54,497 nt of DNA, filler included, from Catajapyx aquilonaris (GCA_000934665.2; 2 parts of 2 records of this genome joined end to end with filler, not necessarily neighbours in it); one strand, 5' to 3'; shown: positions 27,285 to 54,497, numbered from the whole stretch's first letter. A program made the numbers and translations. Notes: generated from the letters alone by a model not told the origin.

Positions 27285-27540
27285 CCCATCTGGCACAGTG
27301 AAGTTATACAAGTAAAATCCATAGGAATTGGTGCCATGAGTTGAATCAATTCATGGGACATGCTTCACACCCTTTTACACGCATTATCCACCTCCTACTA
27401 CAGGAGTTGGATCATATGAGCAGTTATGCTGATACCTTTTGGACCCCCATCTTGTTATCAAATAAACTGCCAGTCATGAGCATATTCAGTTTGTTTCTCT
27501 GTTAGTTTGAGTGGGAAGGAGTCAAAGCATCTCTGTGTCA
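27285..27540 (-). mobile_element. MULE/Mutator transposase fragment
   Basis: IDSTHGTNSYGFYLYNFTVPDG matches the MULE first-Asp motif DSTHGTNxY; stops upstream. Confidence 0.65.
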
Positions 27541-27959
27541 TACCCTCAAAAAGATTCATTTCTGTTCAGTTGATGATGGTAAATAAGAGCAGCATGAAGG
27601 TCTGTCAGAATTCCATGCTCATTGTGCTGTACATCACGAAATTGGTGGCCGAGTTCATAGGCACAATCTCCTTTGGAGGATTTCATTATAAAATTAATTA
27701 CTGTCCGTGCTGTTCACCTTCTGCCAACTCTTATTCACCCTTTTCCATTATCCGGCCAGTCCTTCCGGCAATGCAAGCATTCTCTGGGCCTCTGTGCTTT
27801 TTACCGGATATATTAGTAATTCATTCTATGTATTCCCCTTGGTTGTACTGGAGGCTTCAGTGGAAAGATTTGATGGAATTTAATCTCTTTAAATTAAATT
27901 CTCCTTATAATAAACACAAACACATGCAGGCTTTACATTAATGTGTCCCATGAGAGGTC

Positions 27960-28120
27960 TTGATATTCTTTTTCACGCCCTTTCTCCATGCCCTGAATGC
28001 AGAGTTCTTGCCTTTTCCCTGAGAAATATGACACTGTCACAACCGGAACATGCGTGGAATCCTCTTAAGCGCAGCCGATATCGTCTCTCCGAGTACATTT
28101 GCCATGTTATGTACAGGCAA
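27960..28120 (-). mobile_element. Academ-like transposase (XPG-like domain) fragment
   Basis: LRGFHACSGCDSV resembles FHAFTGCDTxS. Confidence 0.5.
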
Positions 28121-29337
28121 GTAACGGGCTGAACCAACTTGGTGAGAGACATCTGAGGAAGCTTGGAAAGAGGCTTGGTCCTCCTGGTAAATACCTGGTC
28201 CGTGCTGAAACGGCTCCGGAACTCGGGATCATCTGGATACACTTGTACACCACAGTCAATTAGCCTCCCCTCTTTCCGCATGCCGATAAGAGGACAAAAA
28301 CACCCCCCAATCCGGCGACAAGTTTGTGCAGAATCCAGATAATAGCTTGGAAAAGGCACATGATTATCTATCCAGAGCCTATGCTCAAGTGATACTTTTT
28401 TGGCCCTACGATCTCAGGCCCCCCGGGTTTGTGACGTAAATACGATACGCCCAATTTTCCATGACACATATTGGGAAAAGTTCCCTTGCGATCAATCAAA
28501 ATCATTAGGACAAAGCGGAGTATTGAAAGAAAGAGACGTTTTTAGCTGCACAATTTATTTACCTGGCTAATTACATCTTGCAAAGTGACTCTGTGACGCG
28601 AAGGCATCACATAAAATAGTGGGTCCATTGTACTTTGATTTATTCTGCCTTGATACGTGCGTTACAAACAAAAGTCAGGAAGGGATAGGAGAAATGGGTA
28701 AAGAGTGATAGGTCAGGAGTAACGACCAGCTCCCGGGGAACTGGCCTGGAGCATACGTGGGTGGTTGGTTAAGTAGTAAGGTGAGAACAATGCATGATGG
28801 GTACTCACGAAGGTGAAACAGAAGTTACGTATTTAACAGAATGTATGATGGTTAACAGACCTTTGCAGCTAACGGTATATACATAGATGGAGAAATAGGT
28901 CAACCTCGCCAATGCAACGGTGCATCTCGCATTGGTAAATGGGGGAGGCAACAACAACTCGAAAAGAAAAAAGGGTGATGGAATGGGCCAAAGACCCCCT
29001 GTCATTCAGGAAGGTGACAACTCCAACACACGTTCTCTTTTGTTTTTTATTAACCACTGATCTCGGGCGGAAAGCAAATGAAACACTTTTTGCACTCTAT
29101 ACATACCATCTGCCAGACCATTCATCTTCATCACACATTCACTCTTCGTTGGCAGCATGTGCTACTCCCCAACCACCATTTGCCACAATCTCGACGGCGC
29201 CGGGGACGGCTGGCTGCATGAGCCGGCATGTCGGGCTGCAGGAAAAATAATTGGTGTCGTGAAAATTACTAATAGCTTCTGCCAAATGGGCTAAAATAAA
29301 AAAATAAAATAAAAATTTAAAAATGTATGTAAACCCT

Positions 29338-29945
29338 CTACTCTGCGACAGCCCGCCGCCGCTTCCAACTTCTTTGGCTGTTGTCCAACTCTCTCTGTTC
29401 AGCCCTTATGTATGTGGCAACCTCGTCTCGTCCATTTGCCTCAGCCAGATCTTGTGGTCTTCGGCGTTTGGTGGTGGTGGTGGCCTCCATGTCGGCCCCC
29501 TTTTCCACCAGGAAGGCCACCACATCTTCGTGGCCACGGTAGGCCGCCACATGCAGAGGGGTCCACCCATCCGCAGTGGTGGCCTCCAACTTGGCCCCCT
29601 TCTCCAACCTTCAAACCATGGTAGGCCGCCAGATGGAGAGGGGTCTGGCCGGATTTGTTTGCAGCTTCCAAGTGCGCGCCCTTCCTCAGCAGCAGCCTGA
29701 CCGTCTCCACGTGGTTATGGGAGGCCGCAAGGTGTAATGGGGTCTCCCTATCCTTGTTTTCCGCTCCCATGTTGGCATTTACCTTCAGCAGTTCGCGCAC
29801 CATTTCCACGTGGTTACAGCAGGCCGCCAAGTGGAGGGCCGTCTCCCCATCATTGTTCTTGGCCTCCAGCTCCGCCCCCTCCTTTAGCAATACCTGGGCC
29901 ATTTCCACACATCCTGTTGTAACTGCCACATGAATGGCCTGGACG
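29338..29945 (-). pseudogene. Intronless ankyrin-repeat fragment, frameshifted near 29608
   Basis: Repeats GETALHLAA, RETPLHLAA, GQTPLHLAA, GWTPLHVAA; no own start; abuts a transposon end. Confidence 0.85.
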
Positions 29946-29986
29946 TCTAATAAAGGTTTGGCGGGGTACGGCGGGGTACGGCGGGG

Positions 29987-30054
29987 TACCCTCGAAATCA
30001 GTATTTTTTGCCCGATTTTTAGAATCCAACTTGTATTTTGAGTGGAGTGTCCCT
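29987..30054 (-). mobile_element. Kolobok-like transposon terminus inserted at TTAA
   Basis: TTAA-AGGGACACTCCACTCAAAATACAAG...; the TTAA (30055-30058) is unbroken in the paralog at 38611-38614. A second copy starts at 54359. Confidence 0.6.
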
Positions 30055-30058
30055 TTAA

Positions 30059-31591
30059 GCTTTGCTTCTCTGACCTCATCTGCCCAGTGACAAGGAAGGT
30101 AAACACCTCGACTTGGCTTTGCCTTGCCTTTTGAAGCAGTCCGAAATCTTTATCAGCATCAATGTAGGAGTGTCCACTCAAGAAAAATTTGTGGGTTATC
30201 TTTTCGAAGGAATCTCAAGGTGTTGAGGTAGTCCGAGTCGATAGTATACTCTGCACTCAAAAAATTTTTTACCTGTAGTAGCAAAAATTATGACTCCCTC
30301 AGCTATAAATTTTGGATCTATATGACGCTCCTAAAAATGTATCTGCCACAGATAAAAAATATAGGAACAGAAATTTACCTGCCACAGATATATTTTTATC
30401 CGTGAGAGACAAACTAACGTGCTCTAGCAGACAGGGAATATGCAGCTGTCACTGCTAAAACATAATTTATCTGGAACATTTTAGCTATGGCAGGTATAAT
30501 TCTTTTACTATAGCAACTGTACTGTTTAGCTGAAATACCTCCTTTTCATATACTTGATTTAAATAATTGTAAAATGCACTGGAATAAAATGCAAAGTATA
30601 CTATAAGCCCCCAAGAGTCCAGGTGATCGTCCACTGACACTTCGGTATCCATCCTGCGTGCACAGCTGCATCGCAGAAAGCCAGAAACAGACAAGCGCGT
30701 GTCGAGACCAGGACTGCTCTGCAATATGGCGCCCGCCGCACCGCCCGCACTTCTCCTGATCTACTCATGTTACGTCCTTTTCAAAGATGCATAAAAAAGT
30801 CTAAACCTGCATGCGGTATGTCTGGAAACATAAAAAAGACACACTGTCCAAAAGGTGCGCTAACAAACCAAAGTATATCACTTTCATGTCGGCAAATCGG
30901 ACGGGAACTTAAAATGACTGTAATGGAACAACACCCATGAAATGGCGTCGGTAGTCTCCACATGGTAGCCGACTTCAAACACAATATACAAACTTCGTGC
31001 ATCTGGTTCCAGGCGTGGGTCTGAAGAGGTTATAATTACAAATTAAGCCGTGATTTTAGCTTGTTTTTCAACATATGCTTGACGATGGAATCTGGACATT
31101 TACGGATATCTCATTGTTTTCCGACCGGACGCGGCGCGCGCAGCTTCTTCACGTCTAGCATTTTCGCCCTCCCAGCAGAACATTAGCTGTGTCAGGCAAA
31201 GGCCTCTAACACGCTTTACTGGTACAGCTAAATGCTCTGACTCTTTCAGCTATAAGCAACAGTAAGAATATATGGCTCTGGCAGGTACATACGTTGCCAA
31301 AGGCAGGTTAACTACATGCCTGCTCCAGCTGAACTTGCATCTGGGACAGCTAAAATGCGGTTGCTAAAAATTATTTGCTGTCACAGCCATATCCTTTTTT
31401 GAGTGTGCATGTTGTGGCAACGACAAATCAAGTCGGATGGTCCATTTTCGCCTGAAAATAGTGCTTGGTTAACGGAGAAAATGCATGCGGTTTTTGACTT
31501 AGTACATTTGGGAAGGCGCATATGCGCGCAATATTGTCGCTTGGTCCGACTCTGCACCGTAATGACTCAAGCACGTCGACTAAGTCCGCAC
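30059..31591 (-). mobile_element. Sola1-like transposase fragment, split by a CACTA-type insertion
   Basis: ITHKFFLSGHSYIDADKDFGLL. Segments 30059-30253 plus 31406-31591 match the continuous copy at 38612-38996. Confidence 0.7.
30254..31405. mobile_element. Non-autonomous EnSpm/CACTA-type element
   Basis: TIR CACTCAAAAAA / TTTTTTGAGTG, 2-bp TG duplication, many ACAGCTA/ACAGGTA-like subterminal motifs; the empty site CTCTGCATG is present at ~38800. Confidence 0.85.
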
Positions 31592-31809
31592 GTGGGTCAC
31601 TGTTTGGAAGGGAAGGAGTCGATATAGGAGATGGACCATTAGTGCAAAAAATTACCCATTTTTTTCCAATGTATCATCGTAGTATGATCTCAAATTCGTC
31701 GTCGTTCATGTCCCTTGGTCAATTCATGCGCTCAAGCCCTCATTTATATGCTTCACATCTTAATGAACACACCAGGAACAGCAACACCTAGCCCAAAGAC
31801 AATAATACG

Positions 31810-31930
31810 ATGGCACAGCAGGGTTAAAGAGCAATCAGGCATGTCTTCCATGTAACCTGCTTTGTACCATGCATATTTTCTGAATTCCTTGAATCTGGGT
31901 GCTGAGGATTGATAGTGAATGCGGGTGTTG
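31810..31930 (-). mobile_element. pogo/Tc5-like transposase C-terminal fragment
   Basis: IHYQSSAPRFKEFRKYAWYKAGYME. Confidence 0.55.
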
Positions 31931-32634: not shown

Positions 32635-33640
32635 CTAACCTCTATGTGTATGTACTGCTACTTCTGTTTTTGCCGGTAGTACAACCTTTGGTTTTGCGAC
32701 CATGTCATCGTACACCTCCCAACTCAGGTCTGGCCTTCGGCAATACGCTACATATTGGCCAGCATCAGTGTCTCTCTCTGGTGCAGAGAAGTGCACTACG
32801 CCACGCAGATGGTACGACTTTCCGGAGATCTCCATCAAGGTACGGATATCTTGCAGACAGCACGTGAGACATTCCTTAACGATGTAAGCGCTGTTGACGT
32901 TGTGCTGCCTCTCAGAGTTATCCACTATGCCACAATGCTGAGAAGTTCACGAGCTTCATGAAGAGAGTCAGCTCTTGCAACAAGAATTATGGATCGGGTA
33001 AGGAATTCCTTCTGACGAGGTTTCAGACATGCAATTTCTTTCCGGCGTCGTACCATTTTTGTGAGGTGAGCAACATCGAGGCGCACGAGTACCTTCGGCC
33101 TGCTCGAATTCTGTTTTACTGCCATAATTTCCTTTGAAGTACCAGTTGCAGGGCATGCGCCTCGCTTCATACAGCAAAGCTGCCAGTACATCGGTCCATA
33201 TCTCGAGCTGTAGCACCTCTATCGCTCTGCAGCCTCCCTTACGATTTTTCGCAGACAACCGACGGTATTGTTAAGTCACTGGGGCCATCACTCGCCATTT
33301 CTCCTTCGGGATATGAAGAAGGAATTCAGTTGTCAGGGCTCCCTTTTGAGCGCCACCAGCAGGATCGTCGATGTCCTCTTCGTCCTCCTCTACTTCTGAT
33401 CCGTCCCGGAGAGTCGCTAACCATCGTAATTTGCCGATCGACAAGTCCAAGATCCTCCTTGATATTCCACTTATCGCAAGAGATGAATGTGTAAAGACCT
33501 TTGGGAGTTTTGTTTAGTCCGTGCTCCTTGATCAATTTTGACCATACTCTATCAGATAGAGGAACTACTTTCCCATACCTAATAATGAGCTGGTTGCTTA
33601 CTATCGAGGAGTAAGTTGGGTATGGATAGGTTGGGTTGGT
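32635..33640 (-). mobile_element. NOF-FB-like (Mutator-related) protein fragments, with C-terminal C19/USP-like His-box region
   Basis: VVPLSDRVWSKL...LYTFISCDK, VRLDVAHLTKMVRR, YHLRGVVHF...GQYVAYCRR...WEVYDD; deleted and frameshifted. Confidence 0.55.
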
Positions 33641-33702: not shown

Positions 33703-34560
33703 TTAATGTTCTTTTGGGAACGGGTGTCTAGCTCTGATGAGCATGCGGGATAGGTTCTTGCCTTGTTTTGGCGTGTTGCTGACGCATCTTGTTACGTATC
33801 TGCAACCCATCGGAGCGGTCGTCCTCTGCCACTTTTTCACTATGTTGCTAAGCTGCTTATGTCCCGTACACTGTGGGAGAGTCCACCGCCGTTTGCCTGT
33901 CAGGTCAGGTGCTGGTTTCCTCAGGGGCGTGTCGTCGTATGGCATCAGGTGATGACCATCTTCCATGATGTTTTCCTGAATGATCTGGAACAGCTGGGCT
34001 AGTCCTGTTGCCACCAGTTGGGATGGGTACTTTCTTCTGATCAGCTGCACAAGCGTCTCCAGACCGGAGATGAGTGCTCCCGTAGCCGTAGTGGACCTAC
34101 GTCTAATTCGTATGAGGGCACCTGTAACGATTGCTTTAAAGACATGTTCTGAATGCAAGCTGTCGGGTGTCACACATGGCCGGGGGTTTAGTATAGTGTA
34201 CAGTTTGTATGTGTCTGTTTGCGTCAAAAAATATGTGCGTATCCAAGAATGGTGCATGTTTTCCTCTGTCGTGTACTGTCGCTGTCAAGTGTTTGTCGTT
34301 ACGTATTTTATCATTGTGTGTTCCCTGGTGATTATAAGAATGTCGTCTAAATATCACGAAAATGTGTGTACTTGTAGCTCGTTTTTCTTCATGAAAGTTA
34401 TCTCCAGTTCATTCAAAAAAATGTCAGCCAACAATGGTGAACAACTGGACCCCATGGCTATCCCCTTACTTTGTTTATAAAGGTCCTGGCCAAACCAGAA
34501 GTAATTGGCCGCAAAGAACATATCTAGCAGTTCTTCCATAATGGCTGGTGTAAATCTTCT
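33703..34560 (-). mobile_element. Penelope-like reverse transcriptase fragment
   Basis: NYFWFGQDLYKQSKGIAMGSSCSPLLADIFLNELE, APFLDTHIF, PDSLHSEHVFKAIVTGALIRIRRRST; frameshifted. Confidence 0.85.
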
Positions 34561-34949
34561 TGTTTCGTCGTGTGTTTTGTGCCAAAAAGTGTAGGTAGGG
34601 AGGTGCAGAAAACTACAACACCAATTGACCCTTTCACTGGGGAGTCCACTTTTGTGGCTTCTTTGATATTTACATAAGGACAAAAATTATGGCAATAAAA
34701 GGCACATAATTATGTCCAGAAGGAGATCTTTCATTTACATCCATAGGTTCAACATCTGGGTTAACATTTGCTTTGGTATAGGAAGCGTTTGGTTGGAAAT
34801 GCTTTTGAGGAACAGCACAGTTCTTCCCAAAATGGGGTGACCGATTCCAGGTGATATACCTCTGTTATTCCAGCAGACGGTCCTGCCTGGACCGCAGCCT
34901 TGGATTTCGATTTGAACAGCTTCGCCTGCATAGTAAAAATTGCATGTAT

Positions 34950-36392: not shown

Positions 36393-36639
36393 CTTTGGAC
36401 GGGTTTCACAATGCAGTTCACATGATGCAGTTAGTGTGAAGCAAAAGGAGTTGATTAGAGGAAAATAAAATCACCTCCGAGGCTTCGTTACTGCCTCCAA
36501 GAACTGGTGGAGTAGGCTGAACAATGGCCACTTCTTCCGTAACACAGCCTCGGAGCCACTTCGGCCATCTCCGAGCGCCTTCTTTTCCCGGACATATTTA
36601 TCCCTCAGGCTCTTCCACCTCGCCTTGGCTTCGGCAACT

Positions 36640-36800
36640 GTAAAAAATTATACCAGGGAGTTGTTTTTCAATGAAACAAGTTTCAAAGTGGTCTAAGTAA
36701 ATGTCAGCAATTAATGGGGCTACTGCACTCCCCATGCTGACACCCTTAACTTGTCTATAAACCCTATCTCCAAAGTGGAGGAGGGTGAACATTTCATTAA
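36640..36800 (-). mobile_element. Second, distinct Penelope-like RT fragment
   Basis: HFGDRVYRQVKGVSMGSAVAPLIADIYLDHFE. Confidence 0.8.
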
Positions 36801-37289
36801 GACCTTATCAGGGTAATGTCAATTTCTGATTCCCAATACTGCTTGATGTGAATTTATTACCAAGGCACATCCATATAGCCTACCCCATGAACATTTCGCC
36901 GTCGGGAAAATGTCGGGCCAACTGCGACAAACCGCCAGATTTAGGCGGCCCGCTGGCGCGTTGCTGACACCGGGCCGCTGGCCGAAATGGGAAAATGAAC
37001 GCCCCCCGCGTCACCGGCGGCAAAAGGTGTCGGCCCGACAGCTGCATCTCGCGGCAGGCCCGACAGAGGCATATTGCAGGAGTGTATTTATACTTACTGT
37101 TAATTCTTCACCATAATATATGTGCAACAGGCAACTGATCAGTCAATTTGCCTCTTTCCGTGCACCTGCCCCAATAACTGATGACTTACATGCCACATGC
37201 AACTTCTCGTGGAGAAAAATAAATGGGAGATTCCTGAGCAGACAGTAACACTCGTCTACATGCCACTTTTTATTGCGCATGTGCTAGTG

Positions 37290-37637: not shown

Positions 37638-38100
37638 CTACACTGAATACATTAGGATGTGTACTGCTACTTCTGTTTTTGCCTGTACAACCTTTGGTTT
37701 TGCGACCGTGTCATCGTACACCTCCCAACTCAGGTCTGGCCTTCGGCAATACGCTACATAATGGCCCGCATCCGTGTCTCTCTCTGGTGCAGAGAAGTGC
37801 ACTACGCCACGCAGATGGTACGACTTTCCGGAGATCTCCATCAAGGTAGGGGTATCTTGCAGACAGAACGTGAGACATTGCTTAACGATGTAAGCGCTGT
37901 TGACGTTGTGCTGCCTCTCAGAGTTGTCCCGCACACGACGAGCGGTTGTGGTATAGTTCCTGGCACTTGTTGGCAGCATGGACACCATACCCGTGGTGGG
38001 GTTGCCAGCAGCTTGCTCATGGCATCTACCCCTACATAGATTACCATCTGCGTCAAAGTAATCAGCATATCCAAGTGGGCAATTGTAACGTGCTCGCCCA
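37638..38100 (-). mobile_element. Second copy of the NOF-like USP-type C-terminal fragment
   Basis: 37660-37929 is nearly identical to 32651-32923; GHYVAYCRR...WEVYDD. Confidence 0.6.
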
Positions 38101-38513
38101 ACGCGACTTTAAAGTATTACCGTCACATCTTTCGGCACTTTTTTCTTGACCCCTTGTTGCAGCTGCTGCTGCTTCCTTCGGTCGTCTTCAAGGAAATCAA
38201 TATGCGCTTTCATGCCACTGATCGTAGCATTCAACGCCTCCTTCGTTGGAGAAGGTGGTTCGAAGGGTCTTGTCCCTGAAATGGGTGTGGTTTAATAAAG
38301 GTGTTCCTCCAAGTGTTCCTCCGTGCGGAAATATTAATATAGTTATATCTATATTTATTAAATCAATATGTTTAGATTTATTTGGTAGAGTGCACATGTG
38401 ATAGCACAGATAGATTTCTCGATTGCATTGTCTTAACTGCATAAAATAACAAAAGTAAGCTTGGATTTTGTCTCAATATCATAGTTGCGGTGTACGAAAC
38501 CAGCCATTTCATT

Positions 38514-39769: not shown

Positions 39770-39955
39770 ATTGTGTGCTTTTTCCTGGCAATATCTGCCC
39801 ACAGTGCATTGACCAGGTTTTTTTTCTTGTGATCCTTGTTTCTCGGATTCCAAATAGCCTCCGCCTCCGACACGTATTTGGCCAGCACCTCTGAGTCCTC
39901 TGCGTATTCGCTCTTCCTGTCTCTCCCACGTGTAGGTGCAATCTTCGGGCCCATT
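39770..39955 (-). mobile_element. MADF-domain (Harbinger-associated) exon fragment
   Basis: YVSEAEAIWNPRNKDHKKKNLVNALWADIA, followed by a GT donor. Confidence 0.65.
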
Positions 39956-42679: not shown

Positions 42680-43709
42680 GAGGTGGTGGATATTGAAATT
42701 GGCGTATGGCCTGCATGATGGCCATTTTGCAATCAATTTTTGCATGACTCTCCACTTTCTTAATTTCTTGAAGCGGTAAGGACAGAAAGGCCATGTCCCC
42801 GTCTGCATCCTCCACTTCCTCCTCCCGATTCTTGACCAGAAGATCCAGCAGCTGGTTCTGGAAAGGGCTCATGCGCTGCCCTTTTTTTTTTGCTTCCCCC
42901 TTTGGGACGTTGACACCCCGGCAATCCCGGCATCCTGACCCTCCGAGGAAGAGTTGGCCTCGTCGTCGCCTTCCGCCGAAAAGTTGCTGTCAGTCGTGTT
43001 GTGGGAAGTTGTGGGCTCCAGGAATGACAGCTCCTTTTAATGCCACGACATCATGTATTGTGCAAAAGCTACCAGATGCTGAAATGTATTTGCTACATGA
43101 CACAGTTTTTGGTTTGAAATATACATATAATATATAATGCATTAATCACTTACCGCGTTCAATTCTTTCCTGCGCGCTTGCAGTCTCCCAGTCACTGAAG
43201 ATGGCACCTGCAACCTCTTCCCAGGCCTGCCTGCCTCCTCAGGTCCCTGTCGCTGTACTGCTTCTCGTCCATCTTCCACAAACATGGACGATCCTGGATC
43301 TCAATAATGAGCCTCTCCATGTCGAACATGCTTGTCAGAATGTGCCCAGGGCGAGAAGAAGGGTGCACCTGACCCGCTTTCTCCGTCGGGATGTGGCCTT
43401 GCCCCGCCGGAATCTATACATTGCAGTGGGATTATTGCTCCCGACGGAAAACGGAACGGATGTCTTCTGCTGGGTCTTCCGCTGGTGCTCAACGGAACGA
43501 CAGAAAAACCGTCGTGTGTGTCTCATCCCGACGGAAAACGGAACGGATGTCTTCTGCTGGGTCTTCCGCTGGTGCTCAACGGAACGACAGAAAAACCGTC
43601 GTGTGTGTCTCATCCCGACGGAATCCCGTTTACTTCCATGTGTTTGAAATTTTTGAGCGGACCGCACCGGAAATTCCGTTGCGGAGATTCCGTCTAGTGT
43701 GGCCAGGCC
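42680..43709 (-). mobile_element. Harbinger-like end with MADF and BESS exon remnants
   Basis: Terminus GGCCTGGCCACACTA at 43709; ~87-bp direct duplication (43440-43620); MADF LIIEIQDRPCLWKMDEKQYSDR (43335-43150); BESS DGDMAFLSLPLQEIKKV...KMAIMQAI (42880-42680). Confidence 0.6.
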
Positions 43710-43719
43710 ACTGCTATTG

Positions 43720-44540
43720 TCAAGGTAGGCTCCTGCACCGGATTGCGCCCTCTCATGTAATGCCAGGGCAGAGTCAGGGCACTCACTGATGATAATCCTA
43801 CGAAACTCTTCGGCTTCTTCCTCTGGCAGGTGGTCGCTGAACTTTTCTGTCACATGGCAGAGATCCGTTACTTTTGTGGCCTTGTAATCCTCACTGCTGA
43901 CAGATTTCAACTGTCTCCACTGGTTTTCCAAATCTGTGCAGCTGAAATCCTCCAAGCTGTCCATGTTGGTCCTGCGTGTAGTAAAAAGAAATTTGTTTTC
44001 ATTGTACTGACAACCAATGCCATACACCACGTGACCATGCGATACACACCTACCATCTCACCCAAACATTAATGTTTAATATCTCCTGTCGCACTAATCT
44101 GCAGGTAAAGATTCTCTTCAAAAGAATAAATTGTCAAAGAACTCTACAAGTGGTTACAGCTTTACTTTAGTCTACTAATGCTATCTTTGGGGGTGTGATG
44201 GGTGGGGATTGTGGTCGTAAAACCCATACCCTAAAACATGTTGCATCACTGTTCAGGTAAATGAGCAGTCCCACTGCATGCTTGCACATAGCAGAATTCC
44301 CAGCCTTACAGGTGCAATGTAATTTGGGTACAAGCTGGCCAGTGGACTTGTCTTTGCCGAGTACCGCCTTCACTTGATGGGGCTTGCCATTTACTGCGGT
44401 TGTTTGCAGGCCCAAGGCTACTATTTCACATTTCACCTTGCTTCTTTCGAGGACACCGCAACAAATAAAAAATTTCGCGTCGACCAGTGCTTCTCCCTCC
44501 TGCAAGCACCGTTGCTTCTCGCCAACATACTGCATGATAT
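43720..44540 (-). mobile_element. SWIM zinc-finger accessory-gene fragment (ISL2EU/Kolobok-type), two exon remnants
   Basis: LQEGEALVDA...LHCTCKAGNSAMCKHAVGLLIYLN, then DFSCTDLENQWRQLK. Confidence 0.65.
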
Positions 44541-45239
44541 TAGAGATGCTGATACTTATCAAGGAAACACACACACAAAGCCTTGTTCACTACTTACGTT
44601 TTATTCAGTCTTTTCCCAGGGAATACACACACGTCTTACTCAATGGCAGGCCCACTCCCTTCTGTGCCTCTANTCTCTCCCCCCGGCCAGTGGGACCGGA
44701 CCAACCGCCCCACCCCCGGCAGGGGAGCCAACAGTGCACATTCCATGTTACAATGCCCCCATCACCAACTGGCGACCAGATTCTTTGTGTGCTGCCAACA
44801 TCAGAATTCCTCCATGTTGACATGCAGTCAGTTGTTGTCTCTCTGAGACGGCAATGAGGTGCTTGTCAATAAATTAGTGGGACGGGTCCAGTTTGCTGTG
44901 GACTATGTAAATGACCCTACTCTTAAAATGAATCACGTGATAGCCTACTCACATAGGGATTTATCCCTTCACTCTGGGCGTGCTTTTTGGAACCGCCACC
45001 CCACACCATCTGCAGACGTTTCACCCCGGACTGAGACCTCCTGCTCCTCCTGAGGCCTTGTCGTGGTGGTCAACTGGCGACCAGGGGGAGCCGCCTTCCC
45101 CAAACCACATACAGAGCAGGAAAAAAACGAAGACAAGGTAAAAAACAGTGCGGGGAAAAAAGATCTCCCACTCGCCAAAAGAGTTCAATCCACCATTACA
45201 GAGTTCAGTCACTAAAGAGTTCGGCTACGGGAAATCCAA

Positions 45240-46075
45240 CAGTGCACATCCCATGTTACAAGATTCAGGACCCCGTCCTCTCTGGTGGACTCCGCGATCC
45301 CCCGCGCCGTTAGTGGATGTCCTGAGTCAGTCTCCAGTAGCAACACCGTGGCCGGCCCTTCCGTGCTCATCTCTGGATGGGGAAGAGGAAGGCGGCTCAG
45401 CGCGTCGGCATTGCCCACTTGCTTCCCAGGCCTGTACGCTAGGGCATACGCATATCCTGCCAGTTTTGTGCGGTACTTTATCACCCGCGGCGACACCGTT
45501 ATGGGAATGGGTTTCTCCGGATTCAGTAGGCTCAGCAACGGCTTGTGGTCTGTGAATATTTGCACCCTCCTGCCATATATGTATTGGTGGAATTTGGTTA
45601 CGCCAAACATAACCGCCAACGCCTCCTTGTCTAACTGGATGTAGTTCCTTTCCGCAGTTGACAAGGTGCGAGATGCGAAATACACAGGGGCCTCTCTCCC
45701 TTGCTTGTCCAGCACCGCTCCCACGCCATATTGGCTCGCGTCACATACTAACCGCAGCTCCTGCTCTCCGTCGTAGTGTGCGAGTACCGCCGTTGACGTT
45801 ACCAGCTGCTTAGCCGCCTCATATGCCCTTTGTTGCTCTCGATTCCACTCCCACTTGGCTTGTGCGTCCAGCAGCCTGTGCAAGGGCTCCAATGTCGTGG
45901 CCTTATTGGCCATGAAACAGCTGTAAAAATTCATTTGCCCCAGCCACGCCTGCAGCTGTTGCTTATTCTGGGGCTCTGGGGCCTCCGTGATTGCTCGTAC
46001 TTTCTCCGCCACTGGGTGGACCCCCCTTGCATCTATCTCAAATCCCAGGAACTGCACTTTTTCCACTCCAAAGAC
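45240..46075 (-). mobile_element. Ty3/Gypsy Pol fragment (RT C-terminus, RNase H)
   Basis: VQFLGFEID, LVCDASQYGVGAVL, FASRTLSTAERNY, FTDHKPLL, YRPGKQVGNADALSRLP. Confidence 0.95.
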
Positions 46076-47119
46076 GCACTTCTCTCTCTTGCTTCGACGC
46101 CCCCCTCTACCACGGGAGGCCACAGCAGCAGCCTGCGCCGCTCCGCCCGCAAGTCCTTGCCTTCAAAATCAACCTCGTCGCCACTGTTATGTCTGCCAGA
46201 ATCACCTCTCCAGTTCAGCTCGTAAGCTACAATGCTTTATTATCCTGTCACCCATACAACACTCGAGACTGCCTCCAGAGGTCTCCCCCCCCCCCACCTC
46301 CCTACTACTACTGACCTCTGGCGAGTCCTCGTACATCACACCAGTCACGCTTGTGAAGTTCATTATTATGAGTATTCAAAACGAAGAGATCTTTTGACAG
46401 ATAGCGTTTCTTGGTTTTTCCACTGGGGGTTGGATACTCACGAAGCGATTCTGGAAATGTCTCAGAAATGTTCTGGTCGGGGAATTTAAGGCTTACTAAA
46501 TGTTCAAATAAAGGGATCCCAGTCTGCACTTCACTCTCCTGTAGATTTCCAGGATCCGCAAAATTCAGGTCAACTGTGCTCTGGTCCCATAGATCTTCTA
46601 ATGCACTTTCTTCTTGAATTCCTAATAGTCCTATCCACCAGTTCTACAATAAGCATGATCTGCAGAATACCCTGCGCAGACTGCAGCTGCGTGTCAAAGG
46701 GCGCCATCTTGCCAGAGTCTTGTTGGGAATCATGGAATGAATGGATAAGTGAGAGCACCATTGTTATCCAACAGTACAGTTCCTTCTTCAATTTCAGTTT
46801 CTGGTCTGTTTATGTCGGCCACTGTACTGGCTCCAGTTGCTCCACCACCAATGGTATCATCACTGGCTACACTAATGCTACACCTCCATTTCACAATTGA
46901 TTGACATTCCTCAGCCTCTGTTGGAGCTGTCTTGTCCAATGAAACTTCTCGTTGCATGAATATACTAATGCATGAATTGCCCGCTCCTGGATAATGCTAC
47001 ACATTCATGGACTGTATTAAGCCATACATTCTCTGGCGTATTTACTGGCATGAAATGCTACTGGCTGGGTGCCCTGTGAAGGTTCACTCCAATCTGGGCA
47101 CAATATTACAAATTAGACT

Positions 47120-47680
47120 CACCTCCATGTTGGTCCTTGTTGCCCTCGGAGTCACCGCGTCTTTGAGGAAGTGGAGTTGCTGGTAGCACCACCACTCTTT
47201 CCCCTCCCCCCCTGCAGCCCCACTCTTCACTTTTTGCTTTCTTAGCGCTTCGCTGAACTGGCACCTCAAGTTCTGCAATTTCGTCTTGATTGCCTTCGGG
47301 ACAATTCCCGGCCGCACACTTTGCATCGCGGCTGCCATTTCTTCTAAAGCCTTCGCAGTCCAAGAAACCTCTTGGAGTATGAGGTTTTTTGGCCCTCAAG
47401 TAACTGTGTAGTGCACAGGCTGCCAGTGCGATTTTTGCAACTTTCTCAGCTGAGAAGCAGATAGGTCCCAGGAAAACTCTAAACCTGTTGGCGAGAATGC
47501 CAAACGTGCTCTCTACCATCCCCCTAGCCCTGCTCAGGCGGTAATTAAATATCACTTGCTCCTTAGTTAGACCACGATGCAGGTAGGGCTTGAGGATGTT
47601 GGTCTGTAATGGGACGGCATCGTCTGCAACAAATACATGTGGGACTGGGGTTGTACCCCCAGGCAGGGACATGTTTGCCG
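47120..47680 (-). mobile_element. PIF/Harbinger transposase fragment joined to a MADF fragment
   Basis: PHVFVADDAVPLQTNILKPY...FNYRLSRARGMVESTFGILANRFRVF (47680-47370); KLQNLRCQFSEALRKQKVKSGAAG...WWCYQQLHFLKD (47345-47120). Confidence 0.85.
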
Positions 47681-47689
47681 TTACTAGAT

Positions 47690-48025
47690 CTTGATAGAAT
47701 GGGCAGCAGACCGTAATCAAAGACAGCCTGCATCTGCTGTTCGTTTTCAACTCTGTTATTCGATATGGTCTGTAGAATATACTTTACATTGTCACTGTCA
47801 GCTTGAGAAAGAAGTGTTTTAAATTGGTGTAAAACCCCAGAATCGAACATAAGCTTATCGTAATTTCCTCCCACGAGGTAGGGCATTGTCTTCAGAACAC
47901 CGGTCACCACTGATGGCTCCCCATTCTGAACTAGCTGGACAAGACTCTTCGCTTGACCACCGCGTCGACATTATCCTGTATTCTATCCTCAGTAATCCAG
48001 AAGAAGGCCCCGCACGCATGAACTG
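47690..48025 (-). pseudogene. Divergent importin-alpha (ARM repeat) fragment, intronless
   Basis: HACGAFFWITEDRIQDNVDAVV...VVTGVLKTMPYLVGGN...GVLHQFKTLL...ILQTISNNRVENEQQMQAVFDYGLLPIL resembles the importin-alpha ARM motifs TISNITAGNxxQIQAVIDAGL. Confidence 0.65.
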
Positions 48026-49321: not shown

Positions 49322-49762
49322 TTAATAATAAACACGCTGAAAGTTATTTACAGGTCGGCGGCAGATTGGACAGGTGTGGGGTTTTGGCAGACCCCACTGG
49401 TCCCCCATGTTACGCAAAGTTATATTACAAGTGTCACACATGCACAAATGCATGCATGGCATGTATATGTATGTCCTTGGTGCCATCATGCAGCAGACGC
49501 CGACCAGCACACCATTGCCTCCCCCCTGCTGGTCGTCGGCGTCGTTTGCAGCCTGCTGGATGTCGTCGTCGGCGTCGTTTGCTGCAGAGCCTGCAGCAAG
49601 AGCACCTGCAGCAGCAGCAGGCTGAACGATTGGCAGTTGATGAATATTATTCCCTCCACCTGGATGGATAACAGACAGGTGTGAAACAATCCTGCACATG
49701 CTAGTAGGTATAGTACACTCACTGTCAATGATTATATGCTTACTGTTAAATTGGCGATCCAC
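49322..49762 (-). pseudogene. C-terminal IAP-type C3HC4 RING fragment, probably transposon-borne
   Basis: VCCMMAPRTYIYMPCMHLCMCDTC...CPICRRPVNNFQRVYY*; the first Cys appears lost. Confidence 0.7.
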
Positions 49763-51254
49763 ATATGCCCTGACAGTGTGACGGGAAGTCAGGAGATGAT
49801 GTTTCAGGCGGTGGGAAAATTCCCGAAACCGCTGGCAGAGTCGCCTTATCCGTGTGTCCTGGTGGCCCTTGCCCGTCTTATGTCAACTCCTACGCTCACA
49901 CGTGTATAGTCTTGTGCCTGAGACTGTTCGGTGGCCATCAGTCTCACTGGAAAGAACGTCATATTGACACTTAGACACTTAATTTTTTGGCCTTATTCTG
50001 TCAATCTCTCTACTACACGCGAGTACGTACGTCCCAAATAATTGGTTTTTCTCGAATATAAATGACAAACACCTCGTCCGATGATGCAGACACCATTGCT
50101 GCAGCCAGCTTTTTTTCTGACCAAGGAACCGGCAGGAATTGGAACAGGCAAGGCGAGGTGGGGTCGCGGGGAGGGGTGGGCAACATGGCGCGAAAGGTCT
50201 CGACCAATCGTGGAGGCAGCGTAGGACGTAGCGAAGTACCAGAGCCTCGCTGCGTTCCCAAACTTTCCACCCCAATTTTTGGTTTCAAGAAGGCCCTCCG
50301 GGCTCAGCGCGGCGCCACGAGCACCAGTGTGACAGGGCCGGCGAAGGAAAGTTGGCTCGCTGGGGCCCGCGCAAGCGACGCAGCGTGTGTATGACGGACC
50401 CATAATAGGAAAACTGGCAGTCAGTGTATTCGTTGGCCCAAAACAAGTCGAAATTGTCACCATTTTGTAACAAGTAAATAAATGGACTCATGAAATTATT
50501 TGAGATGGTTTTGTTTTTTAAAGAAGTGTTTTTCTTAGCATATGTGTATAGGAAGTAGAGGGGCACGAGTCCAAAAAGTCAACTAATAGATCATTTTTAA
50601 AGTGCCACAAACCAACATTTCAGCCCCATTAAGATACCCTTAAAACCTCGGGAGGCATGTTGTTATTCTTTATATTCATGTAAGTTTGGTTGTATTAGCC
50701 TTGTGACGAGCGGTTTGGTTCGATGGTGGTGAGATAGAAATATAGGGCAACTGAGATCGTGTTCAAGTCCTCTTTAATGTGGGCCAACAAAATAGTAAGT
50801 GAAATGGAAGTAAAGGATAGTGTGGGGTAGGTGGGGAGTGACCTCCTCCTACGGATATGCTCCGATAGGAAGAAGCCTCGATTCGGAGACAGAGTGAGTT
50901 TATATACATATCATAACCCTAGGGCGTGATGGGAAAGAGACATGTCAGTCAATAACAGCACTCAAAGTAGGAGAAGTCCATCTAGCGATGAAAGTTGAAA
51001 GTTCTCCGGTCACAGCCTACTCATCATTTCAGGATTTATTGCCTCTGGTGTGTAACCATTTTGATTTGTGCAATTATCAATTTTTTGCTTGTGCCCCTGC
51101 TCCGGCTGCTTACGTGTGGACCTTTCCCCCGACCCATATGCCCCGACCTGGATTTTGAACTGAGGACTTACACCACCAGGTGATGCACACAAAGCAGGGG
51201 CCATGTTTGTTTAACCAAATATTAGTTAGGAAAAAATTATTGCACCTGACTTAC

Positions 51255-51830
51255 CCATGAAATCCCACGGATTATTTGGGTGAGCGTGTATCATGCGCCT
51301 CCCCAGAGACGCATGGAATGATTCTAGGCCAAATCCAGGCCAAAGACCGAGAAGGCCTCGGGACCCCCACGCACCATCCACTGTCTATTGAAATAGTTAA
51401 AGAATGTGGCGCATGTGGATCCTACCCCCACGCTGTCCGCATGGGACTGGATTGTGTGAAATGCATCCTCGATGTGAGGTGCAGGAACGAGAGCCAGGAC
51501 CATCGTCAGCTGGATCACCAGCTTTACATTTTCATTCCTATGGGCTTCCTGGCGTAACCCTATATGCTGGTGACCTTTCTGGCTATCGCCTGATGGGACA
51601 ATAAAAATAATTGTTATGAAGTACGTAGTGGTATCTGTTGTGCATATTGAATATCCCAACAATGGAACAGGTACTGACATAATTTATTATCTTCATATGA
51701 ACCACTACTTGGACCTCACCTGACAGAAATGGAACCACCAGCCATGTAATGCTGCTGTAGGAAGCACTATTGCCAATGCATTTCGTACACCAGTTTCATA
51801 ATCTGTAAGGATTGACGTTGGGGTCCACCA
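51255..51830 (-). mobile_element. MULE transposase fragment retaining an intron
   Basis: TPTSILTDYETGVRNAL...HGWWFHFCQ followed by GTGAG; next exon LALVPAPHIEDAF...FFNYFNRQWM...FSVFG. Confidence 0.8.
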
Positions 51831-51979
51831 GCCATTGATTCTGTGCACATCCTTTCGTAGCTCATTTTCCTGATCGCGGTAAATGCTCTTAATATTCAAA
51901 CTAAATGCCATGCCGTATGCATATGCTGTAACATACTGTATATAAATAATTATTATATGTAACACATTGGCCATTGCCC

Positions 51980-52146
51980 ATCCCTCTTGGAGCTGCCTTC
52001 ATTGGAATAAACTGGTTGAAAGATCTCTTCTAGGTCCTCTGCCGTTAGAGGCCTTGACCCGTTGTCGCATAACATATGTTCGAAGGATCCTGGGTTTTTG
52101 ATAACTTCATCAAGGAAACCAAGGGTCTTCAACCCATCCTTAAATC
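51980..52146 (-). pseudogene. G2E3-like HECT domain exon fragment
   Basis: Acceptor TTCAG, then FKDGLKTLGFLDEVIKNPGSFEHMLC...LTAEDLEEIFQPVYSNEGSSKR. Confidence 0.6.
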
Positions 52147-52582: not shown

Positions 52583-53194
52583 CCATCCTCTTCCGATATG
52601 TAAGACATGGCTGTGAGAAATATGAGCGCTCTCCATGCCCGGGAAGTGGCTTAATTAGGCGTGATAAATAAATAAATAAATAAATGTGCAAATTTTGTCC
52701 TTTATTAAGAAAATGCACTCACACCTTAACATCTAAGGGCCTTCAGAAAGTTCACAAGGGAGCGTCTCTTCGACTTAACGCTGCACCCCAATCCAAATAT
52801 CTCCTCCAGAGCACCAATAGTGGCACCACTGCCCTTGACATACTTGATGTCTAACACGGCATGGAGGGCCAGATATCCTGCTACAGCTAGAATTATTCCC
52901 TCTGCTGAGAAAATAGTGACCCCTTCTCCTACAACCTTAAACTTGCTTGCATTCGGGGTCCTGAGGTTTGCTCATGTCATCCTCCAGCAACAAAACTGGT
53001 GCTGGATTTCCATCATCATTTTTGGCCTGAAAATATGGCAGAACTTATGAGTGATTGAAATACAGTGTGCATCAATATTACATGATATGATTATGTTGGA
53101 TACTGCTGTATTGACAAAATAACAAGTCAAAAGGTGCCTGTTTCAGGATGAAATGGAGTGTCTGGGGATCTCATTTGAAGAAGTTTATGCTGCA

Positions 53195-53402
53195 CTAGCT
53201 GGGGCACCCGGCGTCGGCCGGGTTCATTTTTATTGAGCAGCTTAGCTAGCGAAAGGAAATGACATTGTAAGAGTAGTGATGTGTCACTGAAAGGTCAATT
53301 GTCATGAGACTCATGACATACTGCACCGGTGGCTCTTTTGATCCCCCATCCATGTGCAAAATTTCAGCTCAGTAGCTTAAAAACTGTGCAAATGCATCCC
53401 CG

Positions 53403-53434
<32 letters not shown>

Positions 53435-53448
53435 TCCTCGTTTATAGA
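53195..53448 (-). mobile_element. Short non-autonomous Helitron-like element with (CTGT)n
   Basis: Minus strand: 5' TC at 53448, (CTGT)n tract, 3' hairpin CCCGGC-CGAC-GCCGGG followed by CTAG-T. Confidence 0.7.
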
Positions 53449-53666
53449 CATACTGTAGATGAGCATAAGGACGACTGAGCCTTGGGAAATGCAAACTGCC
53501 ACATGCATGCACTATTTATTGGCTATTCATGAGAGTAAATCATGCTGATTTTTATAGGCTGTTTCACAGCCACCCCTCCCACCAGAATATTCAGAATGTC
53601 AGTTATGCAAGATCACAATCGGTGAACCCTCGGCTACCAGTTTTGTTTAGCATATTTTAAGATTAA

Positions 53667-53791
53667 GGGCCGGTTTCACCGAGCTTGGTATATGATAAAG
53701 CCAGGTTTCTTTAGGAAAATCCATACAAATAGATAGGGATTTTGAGCAATACCCTGGTTTTATCATATACTGAGCTCGGTGAAACCGGCCC
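53667..53791. mobile_element. Tourist/Harbinger-type MITE
   Basis: TIR GGGCCGGTTTCACCGAGCT / AGCTCGGTGAAACCGGCCC with TAA/TTA flanks; nearly fully palindromic. Confidence 0.88.
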
Positions 53792-54358
53792 TTACTTTCT
53801 CGCCTGTTTTTCAAAGTATCTTACATACAACCCTGAAATTCATCAGTGCAGGTAGAAATATTTACCCGAAAGAAGTCCTCGGTTTTGTCGCCCATGATCC
53901 CAGGCAGTGAGGAGATGAGCTCCTGTTTGAATCCTGAAATAAGATATAATTTTTGTTCAGTTGCTGCTTTCATATACACGTGTACCCTGCAACAATAACT
54001 TGGCCAAATTTATGCACATGCCCATGGCCACCTGTAATTGGCCTTTACACAGAATGGAACATACCAGGGTTTTCCAGGCCACAGCTCAATCCCTTCGTTA
54101 TGCCACTGGGGAGGCGTTGCACATTCGTGTTCAGTTGCTCAATCATGTCTATTTTTTTTCTGCGAAGTAGGCTACCTCCCGGATAAGCTAATGGAATTCA
54201 AAAAGTGGAATTAAGTATGGTAATGACTAAGTAACAGCATTTGGAAAATTCATGCAACTTAATGCACCTCCTTCGCATCGCCCAAGTCACTAAACAATCT
54301 TTGATGGGCTTGTTGGACAGATGGCGAATTGGTAATATGATGTCCATCAGCTGCTTAA

Positions 54359-54497
54359 AGGGACACTCCACTCAAAATACAAGTTGTGTTCTAAAAATCG
54401 GGCAAGAAATCCTTATTCCGAGGGTATAAGCAGTTTTTCTGAGAGACGAACGGTAAGGCCAGGGCGAGCCGTCAAAGTTCGGAAATTCGAATCTGGC
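54359..54497 (+). mobile_element. Kolobok-like transposon terminus, runs off the window end
   Basis: TTAA-AGGGACACTCCACTCAAAATACAAGTTG...; similar to the inverted copy at 30054-29987. Confidence 0.6.

What the first reader, a model, noticed from the sequence alone, without database searches (positions are those of the whole stretch)
27285..54497. 27-kb same-strand mosaic of transposon, virus and host-gene fragments (uni-strand piRNA-cluster-like archive)
Seen: about 28 recognisable coding fragments, mostly 0.1-1 kb, every one on the minus strand. They include MULE, Academ-like, Sola1, pogo, NOF, Penelope, CACTA, hAT x2, Harbinger/MADF/BESS, SWIM, Gypsy, Tc1-like, a reovirus gene, ankyrin, importin-alpha, RING and HECT. 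No element is full length, and many coding pieces abut with no termini or TSDs. Known: uni-strand clusters such as Drosophila flamenco and EVE-rich Aedes clusters store antisense fragments. Inference: a plus-strand transcript would be antisense to all of them. The dominance of short DNA-transposon coding pieces over nested LTR elements is unusual and suggests strong selection for, or active capture of, oriented coding fragments.
Basis: partly seen in the sequence, partly recalled or inferred. Interest (0 to 1): 0.88.

Follow-up and report, generated by a model that had tools for sequence, protein, structure and literature searches.

The report
One-strand transposon and virus fragment array
A 27-kb stretch of an arthropod-like genome is packed with broken transposon genes, a reovirus gene piece and host-gene pieces that all read on the same DNA strand, which is the layout of loci that make transposon-silencing small RNAs, but no RNA data could be reached to show that this one does.

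Summary
The core observation holds. In 27285-54497 every protein-family match lies on the minus strand: 14 loci at Pfam E<=0.01, 8 of them above Pfam's own cut-offs. The plus strand gives one spurious match among 240 ORFs scanned. Dispersed repeats, purine skew and long-ORF excess point the same way.

The reovirus piece is real. It is an internal, frameshifted fragment of a T2 inner-capsid gene (34874-36231), 42% identical to its nearest relative.

Only about 18 of the claimed ~28 fragments could be verified. Academ, Sola1, pogo, NOF, CACTA, Tc1, HECT and BESS were not confirmed. "No termini or TSDs" is not wholly true, because a 1.15-kb element with inverted ends interrupts one fragment. Three coding-to-coding junctions do abut within about 25 nt.

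The window is two pieces joined by an N spacer. The array is therefore the whole second piece, open at both ends, and the genes at 1-27 kb are not its neighbours.

The best reading is a strand-polarised transposon/virus graveyard, probably part of a uni-strand piRNA source. This is a known kind, closest to the Aedes flamenco-like locus, and its function is untested. The scan has noted at least six similar arrays on other DNA of this genome.

The parts
27185..27284 (.). Artificial spacer (44 N, 12-base TTAA-type linker, 44 N) joining two separate pieces of the assembly. The array begins at the first base after it.
29341..30214 (-). Ankyrin-repeat fragment: about five 99-nt repeats with one frameshift. 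It sits in one 257-aa ORF that runs in from the neighbouring transposon piece.
   Evidence: Pfam Ank E 2.4e-28 and 7e-11; 99-nt periodicity
29987..30060 (+). 74-nt transposon-end-like segment. Its inverted copy (92%) lies at 54353-54426. Both copies end at the same sequence next to a TTAA.
30055..31595 (-). Copy A of an unnamed transposase-like fragment 'X' (30055-30255 plus 31406-31595), split by the inserted element.
   Evidence: 92.5% and 90.9% identical to 38611-39000; Atlas lead DUF7869 at 0.83, weak
30254..31405 (.). Complete 1.15-kb non-autonomous element with inverted ends (11 nt perfect; 32 nt at 72%). It is inserted into X copy A. A 2-nt duplication is possible.
   Evidence: the uninterrupted site is seen in copy B
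32651..32946 (-). C-terminal ubiquitin-hydrolase (UCH/USP-type) fragment, copy 1. It is cut short at its 3' side relative to copy 2.
   Evidence: 95% identical to 37660-37929
33706..34686 (-). Reverse-transcriptase fragment. Calling it Penelope-like rests on recalled motifs only.
   Evidence: Pfam RVT_1 E 8.5e-4, below cut-off; tblastx to the second RT piece at 36664-36774, 49% over 37 aa
34874..36231 (-). Endogenous reovirus fragment: an internal part (about aa 145-600 of ~940) of a T2 inner-capsid (orbivirus VP3-type) gene. It is colinear, frameshifted, and lacks both ends.
   Evidence: Pfam Orbi_VP3 E 8.3e-13; PDB 2btv E 6.8e-5; 51 relatives, best 42% identity, E 8e-43; tblastn map
36471..36647 (-). 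MADF domain, C-terminal half (profile 42-81). It abuts the RT piece within about 25 nt.
   Evidence: Pfam E 5.5e-5, above cut-off
36598..36804 (-). Second short reverse-transcriptase piece (about 160 nt of RT sequence).
   Evidence: tblastx; translation
37641..38108 (-). UCH/USP-type C-terminal fragment, copy 2.
   Evidence: Pfam UCH E 9e-5, just below cut-off; PDB USP2 E 0.047, weak
38611..39000 (-). Copy B of fragment X, uninterrupted.
39709..40155 (-). ORF with the N-terminal part of a MADF domain (weak).
   Evidence: Pfam E 0.0034, below cut-off
40320..41867 (-). Probable hAT-type transposase fragment (a lead, not a Pfam match).
   Evidence: Atlas first hit 0.97, unnamed; nearest named clusters FAM200-GTF2IRD2-like 0.92 and Dimer_Tnp_hAT 0.89 (on 41397-41867 only); the extension down to 40320 rests on my reading of the other ORF translations
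43195..43413 (-). N-terminal part of a MADF domain (weak).
   Evidence: Pfam E 9.1e-4, below cut-off
44170..44586 (-). SWIM zinc-finger fragment.
   Evidence: Pfam E 1e-4, above cut-off
45215..46162 (-). Ty3/gypsy-type RT-RNase H fragment in an open 316-aa ORF. No protease, integrase or LTR was found.
   Evidence: Pfam RT_RNaseH_2 E 2.9e-29
47087..47395 (-). MADF domain (profile 25-84), joined directly to the transposase piece upstream of it.
   Evidence: Pfam E 1.6e-9; junction read
47109..47783 (-). PIF/Harbinger-type DDE transposase fragment (profile 72-157).
   Evidence: Pfam DDE_Tnp_4 E 2.1e-12
47566..47970 (-). Importin-alpha-type armadillo fragment (about two repeats), joined directly to the Harbinger piece near 47690.
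   Evidence: Pfam Arm E 0.0019, below cut-off; PDB importin-alpha E 1.5e-7 over query aa 5-92
49325..49882 (-). C-terminal RING finger ending at its own stop codon, followed by non-coding sequence.
   Evidence: Pfam zf-C3HC4_3 E 7.6e-10; PDB MGRN1 E 0.0027
51708..51998 (-). MULE transposase fragment (weak).
   Evidence: Pfam MULE E 6.3e-4, below cut-off
54353..54426 (-). Inverted copy of the 74-nt transposon-end-like segment at 29987-30060.

Best explanation
The second piece of the window (27285-54497, at least 27.2 kb, open at both ends) is a strand-polarised graveyard of truncated mobile-element genes. They are mainly cut-and-paste transposons, plus two or three retroelement pieces, one reovirus capsid-gene fragment and a few host-like gene pieces. 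All have their coding sense on the minus strand.

The most likely mechanism has three steps.
1. The locus is, or lies within, a long Pol II unit transcribed on the plus strand.
2. Insertions and captured fragments whose sense strand is opposite to that transcript are the ones retained. Later deletions and nested insertions whittle them down to abutting pieces.
3. The antisense transcript is processed into piRNAs, as at flamenco and at the Aedes flamenco-like locus.

Shown here: the polarity, the diversity and truncation of the fragments, the co-oriented viral fragment, one ordinary nested insertion, and the tight junctions.

Inferred, not shown: transcription, its direction, and any small RNA.
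For: - Pfam matches: 14 loci on minus and none credible on plus, among 470 ORFs scanned on both strands.
- Five dispersed direct repeat pairs. The only inverted pairs are a transposon-end-like 74-mer and a hairpin. An RT pair is co-oriented at protein level.
- Purine excess on the minus strand also holds in the 19.9 kb without annotation: 51.8%, against 50.3% in the left piece.
- Long minus-strand ORFs far exceed shuffles.
- The viral fragment is co-oriented with the transposon pieces. This is reported for the Aedes locus that makes one antisense transcript and phased piRNAs (PMC7161354, abstract and passages).
- The nested inverted-end element shows that ordinary insertion acts here.
- Earlier scan notes report at least six similar one-strand arrays on other pieces of this genome (unchecked by me).
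Against: - There is no RNA evidence of any kind.
- No promoter or flank is available, because the piece begins and ends inside the array.
- Poly(A)-signal counts show no strand asymmetry: AATAAA 26 on plus, 22 on minus.
- Drosophila flam-like loci are defined by Gypsy/LTR enrichment, and their strand bias is driven by Gypsy alone (PMC10643416, passages). Here only one of about 18 fragments is Gypsy-type.
- Selection for antisense piRNAs does not by itself explain why the host-like pieces (ankyrin, importin-alpha, RING, UCH x2) are co-oriented too.
- Only 27% of the piece (7.3 of 27.2 kb) carries a verified annotation.
Confidence: 0.5

Rival explanations
1. An ordinary long transcription unit with no dedicated small-RNA role, such as a large intron, a long non-coding RNA or a read-through zone. 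Fragments that carry splice or poly(A) signals in the sense direction of the host transcript are purged. Survivors of every kind, host-gene pieces included, end up antisense to it.
For: This filter acts on any sense-oriented gene fragment, so it explains the co-orientation of the host-like pieces as easily as that of the transposons. The piece has no flanks, so a surrounding gene cannot be excluded.
Against: The polarity is total (14 of 14 loci). From recall, the antisense bias of repeats in introns is usually only moderate. No host exon was recognised on the plus strand (0 credible matches in 240 plus-strand ORFs of the piece). Neither AATAAA nor GTRAGT is depleted on the plus strand beyond what the left piece shows.
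Confidence: 0.2
2. An RNA-templated mosaic. A retroelement reverse transcriptase switched templates repeatedly among cytoplasmic mRNAs (transposase, host and reovirus plus-strand RNA). The resulting sense-oriented cDNA chimeras were integrated, in several events, at one locus. Polarity would then be a by-product of how the fragments were made.
For: - The reovirus piece can only have entered DNA through reverse transcription. It lies between two RT fragments of related type.
- Three junctions join unrelated coding pieces within about 25 nt.
- The piece is unusually coding-dense: ORFs of >=100 aa cover 47% of the minus strand, against 10% in shuffles.
- Host-like pieces share the polarity.
- Template switching by retrotransposon RT is the proposed origin of viral DNA forms and TE-EVE hybrids in mosquitoes (PMC5497376, passages).
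- An earlier scan note describes a gypsy element carrying a host gene piece in this genome (e1-7500842, unchecked).
Against: - No poly(A) tails mark fragment ends. On the plus strand there are T runs of >=7 at 8 sites and A runs at 4.
- There is no 3' bias in which parts of the parent proteins are kept.
- 27 kb is far longer than any single cDNA.
- Deletion, or internal deletion within one Harbinger element, explains the abutting pieces equally well.
- One insertion is plainly DNA-mediated.
- The intron test could not be run because no genome is held.
Confidence: 0.1
3. Cargo of a gene-capturing DNA element (Helitron, Pack-MULE or CACTA type) that picked up fragments stepwise.
For: Maize Helitrons carry several gene fragments each; the one passage I saw mentions eight predicted fragments in one autonomous element (PMC3288121, one passage). 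That captured fragments tend to share an orientation is my recall, not from that passage.
Against: No Rep/helicase or other capture-element hallmark appeared among the 470 ORFs scanned. About 18 fragments over 27 kb far exceeds the eight in the passage I saw. The only long inverted pair has its ends facing inward, not outward.
Confidence: 0.03
4. Chance or an assembly artefact, for example chimeric reads or cDNA contamination.
For: The piece is short, begins and ends inside the array, and could not be checked against reads. It contains a 100% identical 87-nt tandem duplication.
Against: The binomial p is 1.2e-4 to 0.008. Internal copies are 91-97% identical rather than identical. Frameshifts are present. 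There is a nested insertion with a preserved empty site. Inside the piece there are only three single ambiguous bases and no gap. Similar arrays were noted on at least six other pieces.
Confidence: 0.03

Closest known systems
Aedes aegypti 'flamenco-like' locus (EVE cluster 38; PMC7161354, abstract and passages read)
   Same: [quoted passage not shown]
   Different: The Aedes locus is 143 kb and has a demonstrated continuous antisense transcript, phased PIWI-bound piRNAs and a candidate promoter. Aedes EVE regions are LTR-rich with only about 3% DNA transposons (PMC5497376, Table 3 passage). Here at least 27 kb is seen, there are no RNA data, cut-and-paste transposon domains dominate the verified pieces, and host-like pieces are included.
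Drosophila flamenco and flam-like unistrand clusters (PMC10643416, passages read)
   Same: Strong one-strand orientation of fragmented transposons.
   Different: flam-like loci were defined by LTR enrichment in 100-kb windows (flamlike1 is about 560 kb), and their strand bias is driven exclusively by Gypsy-family elements. Here one Gypsy-type piece is seen among about 18, and the bias extends to DNA transposons, a virus and host-like pieces.
Non-retroviral integrated RNA virus sequences from Reoviridae in mosquitoes (PMC5497376, passages read)
   Same: A fragment of a segmented dsRNA virus gene integrated in a transposon-rich region.
   Different: The mosquito cases were VP1- and VP5-like and rare, with at most one per species. 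This one is a T2 (VP3-type) inner-capsid fragment, 42% identical to its nearest relative, which is an unnamed ~2.9-kb assembled contig.
Gene-fragment-carrying Helitrons of maize (PMC3288121, one passage read)
   Same: Several unrelated gene fragments lie side by side in one stretch of DNA.
   Different: No Rep/helicase and no recognisable Helitron ends were found. There are far more fragments, and most are themselves transposon genes.

Membership tests
Uni-strand (flamenco-type) piRNA cluster | Transposon fragments overwhelmingly in one orientation | tested here: met
   14 of 14 Pfam loci on minus, none credible on plus; direct repeats
Uni-strand (flamenco-type) piRNA cluster | Many unrelated, truncated and nested mobile elements | tested here: met
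   At least 9 different domain families; every coding element is truncated; one nested insertion
Uni-strand (flamenco-type) piRNA cluster | Enrichment for Gypsy-family/LTR elements (criterion used for Drosophila flam-like loci, PMC10643416) | tested here: not met
   One RT-RNase H fragment and no LTR pair. This fails the Drosophila flam-like definition, not the wider class.
Uni-strand (flamenco-type) piRNA cluster | Size of tens to hundreds of kb with defined ends and a promoter at one end | tested here: inconclusive
   At least 27.2 kb, but the piece starts at an artificial spacer and ends with the window
Uni-strand (flamenco-type) piRNA cluster | Abundant 24-31 nt, 1U-biased small RNAs from one strand, antisense to the elements | not testable with these tools
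   No RNA run was listed
Uni-strand (flamenco-type) piRNA cluster | One long precursor transcript | not testable with these tools
   No RNA run; no genome
Endogenous viral element from a reovirus (T2 inner-capsid gene) | Significant, colinear similarity to viral T2 proteins | tested here: met
   Pfam Orbi_VP3 E 8.3e-13; PDB bluetongue VP3 E 6.8e-5; 51 relatives, 11 of 11 tested carry Orbi_VP3; tblastn aa 145-574 of P0001
Endogenous viral element from a reovirus (T2 inner-capsid gene) | Embedded in host or repeat DNA, and not a free viral segment | tested here: met
   Both gene ends are missing, frameshifts are present, and RT and MADF fragments flank it on the same contig
Helitron or other gene-capturing DNA transposon | Rep/helicase gene or characteristic termini bounding the cargo | tested here: not met
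   No such Pfam family in 470 ORFs; termini were not searched for specifically

The most novel reading that the evidence does not exclude
These one-strand arrays, this one and the similar ones noted elsewhere in the genome, are not passive traps. They would be the product of active, RNA-templated acquisition. A retroelement reverse transcriptase copies short stretches of whatever mRNAs are abundant (transposase, host, reovirus), switching templates as it goes. The sense-oriented cDNA mosaics are then added to a transcribed locus, giving a heritable antisense archive. This would be a eukaryotic analogue of spacer acquisition from RNA.
Probability: 0.1. Interest if true: 0.8.

Novelty: new member of a known kind. 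Interest (0 to 1): 0.36.

Why it matters
If small RNAs confirm it, this would be a uni-strand piRNA source outside Diptera whose verified content is mostly cut-and-paste transposon genes. It also holds a dsRNA-virus capsid fragment and host-gene pieces. Together with the other arrays noted in the same genome, it would allow two tests: whether strand polarity is imposed on all sense-oriented sequence or only on active transposons, and whether fragments enter as DNA or through RNA. Taken alone, without RNA data, it is a well-documented candidate of a known kind.

Tried and rejected
- RNA evidence: the look-up of sequencing runs on 30001-40000 listed no RNA holder, so read laying could not be used.
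- Whole genome: none is held. Copy numbers, parent genes, intron tests and flanks were therefore out of reach.
- The search for homologous proteins, 'longer' setting: nothing at E<=0.001 for the VP3 ORF, the RING ORF or the ORF at 40320-40769. The tool itself calls this weak evidence.
- Pfam at E<=0.5 on 80 ORFs of >=85 aa that had no match at E<=0.01 (plus the AveC_like ORF; the ankyrin-overlapping ORFs were left out): only noise on both strands, so it did not extend the catalogue.
- PDB sequence search for the supposed HECT region: no match.
- Rfam (gathering threshold) and tRNA scans of the whole window: nothing. In particular there is no histone-type stem-loop behind the RING fragment.
- Earlier-findings look-ups: nothing by sequence with the VP3 piece, by 'relatives' or by 'near'.
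- Poly(A) signals, splice-donor-like hexamers and A/T runs: no informative strand asymmetry.
- The 74-nt inverted pair 24 kb apart was considered as the ends of a giant element. I rejected this because both termini face inward.
- Sharp borders of the internal repeat pairs were considered as evidence for copied fragments. I rejected this because the overlap of two independently truncated copies always has sharp borders. For fragment X (copy A stops at 30055 while copy B reads on) and for the UCH pair, one copy visibly continues where the other stops.

Full report
WHAT THE WINDOW IS. The window is not one continuous stretch. Positions 27185-27284 are 44 N, a 12-base TTAA-type linker and 44 N. 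This is an artificial spacer between two pieces of a fragmented assembly.

The left piece (1-27184) holds ordinary genes on both strands:
- an enolase-superfamily gene on plus;
- an ASC-type channel on minus;
- an ankyrin/SOCS-box gene on minus;
- NDUFS5 on minus;
- a desaturase-like gene on minus.

These genes are therefore not neighbours of the finding. The finding is the entire second piece from its first base to the end of the window, so the array is at least 27.2 kb long and open at both ends. Inside it there are only three single ambiguous bases and no gaps. Earlier notes of this scan describe the genome as arthropod-like. The Atlas neighbours of two ORFs are also mostly arthropod.

IS THE POLARITY REAL? 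I translated every stop-to-stop ORF on both strands and scanned them against Pfam at E<=0.01.

Minus strand:
- 14 of 100 ORFs of >=60 aa matched.
- 3 of 128 ORFs of 35-59 aa matched. One is credible (MADF) and two are spurious.

Plus strand:
- 1 of 101 matched. It is AveC_like at 17 bits against a cut-off of 26.6, which I regard as spurious.
- 0 of 141 matched.

Merged into loci, this gives 14 on minus:
- ankyrin repeats;
- RVT_1;
- Orbi_VP3;
- UCH;
- four separate MADF pieces;
- SWIM;
- RT_RNaseH;
- DDE_Tnp_4;
- Arm;
- RING;
- MULE.

Eight loci pass Pfam's own cut-offs and six do not. Of those six, the Arm piece is independently supported by PDB importin-alpha matches (E 1.5e-7). The RVT_1 piece is supported by a second, co-oriented RT piece (tblastx). 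Two-sided binomial p is 0.008 for the eight strict loci and 1.2e-4 for all fourteen.

Adding the second copies of UCH and of fragment X, the second RT piece and the hAT lead gives about 18 fragments, all on minus.

Three annotation-free measures agree:
- Self-comparison gives 11 direct and 2 inverted pairs. Five of the direct pairs are dispersed. The two inverted pairs are a 74-nt transposon-end-like segment and a 131-nt hairpin. Neither says anything about coding orientation.
- The minus strand is 52.3% purine against 50.3% in the left piece. 17 of 19 bins exceed one half, against 8 of 18 on the left. The 19.9 kb without annotation still shows 51.8%.
- ORFs of >=150 aa number 14 on minus (31% cover) against 0.6 expected from shuffles, and 7 on plus against 1.5. 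The piece is unusually coding-like and more so on minus.

WHAT WAS NOT CONFIRMED. Several family names (Academ, Sola1, pogo, NOF, CACTA, Tc1-like, HECT, BESS) found no support:
- a Pfam rerun at E<=0.5 gave only noise on both strands;
- two PDB searches of the putative HECT ORFs were empty.

hAT is a lead only. Pfam may simply lack models for some of these superfamilies, so these names are unverified rather than refuted. Verified annotation covers 7.3 of 27.2 kb.

THE VIRAL PIECE. The ORF at 35122-35778 matches:
- Pfam Orbi_VP3 (E 8.3e-13);
- bluetongue virus VP3 in the PDB (E 6.8e-5);
- 51 proteins in the 1.84-billion representative library.

The best of the 51 is a 937-aa protein at 42% identity (E 8e-43). 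All 11 relatives that I scanned carry Orbi_VP3. The eight that I looked up sit alone on unnamed assembled contigs of 1.8-3.2 kb. By recall, about 3 kb is the size expected of a reovirus T2 segment.

tblastn maps the homology colinearly to 34874-36231 on minus. That corresponds to roughly aa 145-600 of about 940, with frameshifts and both gene ends missing. It is a bona fide endogenous fragment of a dsRNA virus gene, and it must have passed through reverse transcription. Reovirus-derived integrations are reported as rare in Aedes and involved other genes (PMC5497376, passages).

ANATOMY OF THE JUNCTIONS. Not everything lacks termini. Fragment X occurs twice, at 30055-31595 and at 38611-39000 (91-93% identical). 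In the first copy it is interrupted by a 1.15-kb element at 30254-31405. That element has 11-nt perfect inverted ends (32 nt at 72%), and the uninterrupted site is preserved in the second copy. This is an ordinary nested DNA-transposon insertion.

On the other hand, three junctions join unrelated coding pieces within about 25 nt:
- importin-alpha repeats to the middle of a Harbinger-type transposase, near 47690;
- that transposase to the middle of a MADF domain, near 47340;
- a 160-nt RT piece to the C-terminal half of another MADF domain, near 36650.

The transposase-MADF join could be an internal deletion within one Harbinger element, since by recall such elements carry a Myb/MADF-like second gene. 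The other two joins cannot be explained that way.

The reovirus piece lies between two RT fragments that cover the same part of RT at 49% identity. These come from two different elements, not from one split copy.

X and the UCH piece each occur twice, in opposite order but in the same orientation. The repeats are therefore not one duplicated block.

HOW IT MOST LIKELY WORKS. Total polarity across at least nine unrelated families needs a directional filter or a directional source.

The best-documented filter is a uni-strand piRNA source. A long plus-strand transcript would be antisense to every fragment. Insertions in the useful, or harmless, orientation persist and decay.

The closest described case is the Aedes aegypti flamenco-like locus. 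There, TE-EVE hybrids on one coding strand give one antisense transcript and phased piRNAs (PMC7161354). [quoted passage not shown] I give this reading 0.5.

It differs from Drosophila flam-like loci. Those are defined by Gypsy/LTR enrichment, and their strand bias is carried by Gypsy alone (PMC10643416). Here one Gypsy-type piece is seen among about 18.

RIVALS.
- A plain long transcription unit that purges sense-oriented fragments (0.2). It explains the co-oriented host-like pieces at least as well, and it cannot be excluded without flanks or RNA.
- An RNA-templated mosaic made by template switching (0.1). It would explain the polarity, the viral piece between RT fragments, the tight junctions and the coding density. 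Against it: no poly(A) tracts mark fragment ends, there is no 3' bias, and the array is far longer than any cDNA.
- A Helitron-like capture element (0.03). No hallmark gene was found.
- Chance or artefact (0.03). This is unlikely given the diverged internal copies, the nested insertion and the statistics.

WHAT IS NEW COMPARED WITH EARLIER NOTES. The scan had already flagged at least six one-strand arrays on other pieces of this genome, none with RNA data. I did not check them.

- recognition of the spacer, and so of the open ends;
- a both-strand Pfam control;
- annotation-free polarity measures;
- the mapped reovirus T2 fragment;
- the nested inverted-end insertion;
- the three tight junctions.

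It does not add the decisive RNA evidence.

VERDICT. The polarity and the mosaic are real, while the count and several names are not verified and one statement is corrected. This is a new member of a known kind, of moderate interest.

Noticed in passing
window 27185-27284: 44 N, a 12-base TTAA-type linker and 44 N. This is an artificial joiner, so the window concatenates two separate assembly pieces. Gene neighbourhood must not be read across it.
   Followed up: yes
window 18833-20725 (minus; left piece): An open 631-aa reading frame with no Pfam family at E<=0.01. It lies between an NDUFS5-like exon and a desaturase-like gene. It could be an orphan gene or a transposon ORF.
   Followed up: no
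window 43439-43612: Two 87-nt units in tandem at 100% identity, inside a 240-aa minus-strand ORF of unknown family. This is either a very recent duplication or an assembly stutter.
   Followed up: no
window 52295-52600: A degenerate tandem array with nested periods of 22, 44 and 65 nt.
   Followed up: no
window 53664-53794: A 131-nt near-perfect hairpin (42-nt arms, 93% complementary), MITE-like.
   Followed up: no
window 29960-29989: Three perfect copies of a 10-nt G-rich unit, lying exactly between the ankyrin fragment and the 74-nt transposon-end-like segment.
   Followed up: no
window 42550-42619 and 46359-46428: A 70-nt segment repeated at 97% identity in the same orientation, with unrelated flanks on both sides. 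Its origin is unknown.
   Followed up: partly
window 2612-3735 (plus) and 4994-6843 (minus), left piece: Exons of an enolase-superfamily (MR_MLE_C) gene and of an amiloride-sensitive channel (ASC) gene. These are ordinary host genes that served as a both-strand control.
   Followed up: no
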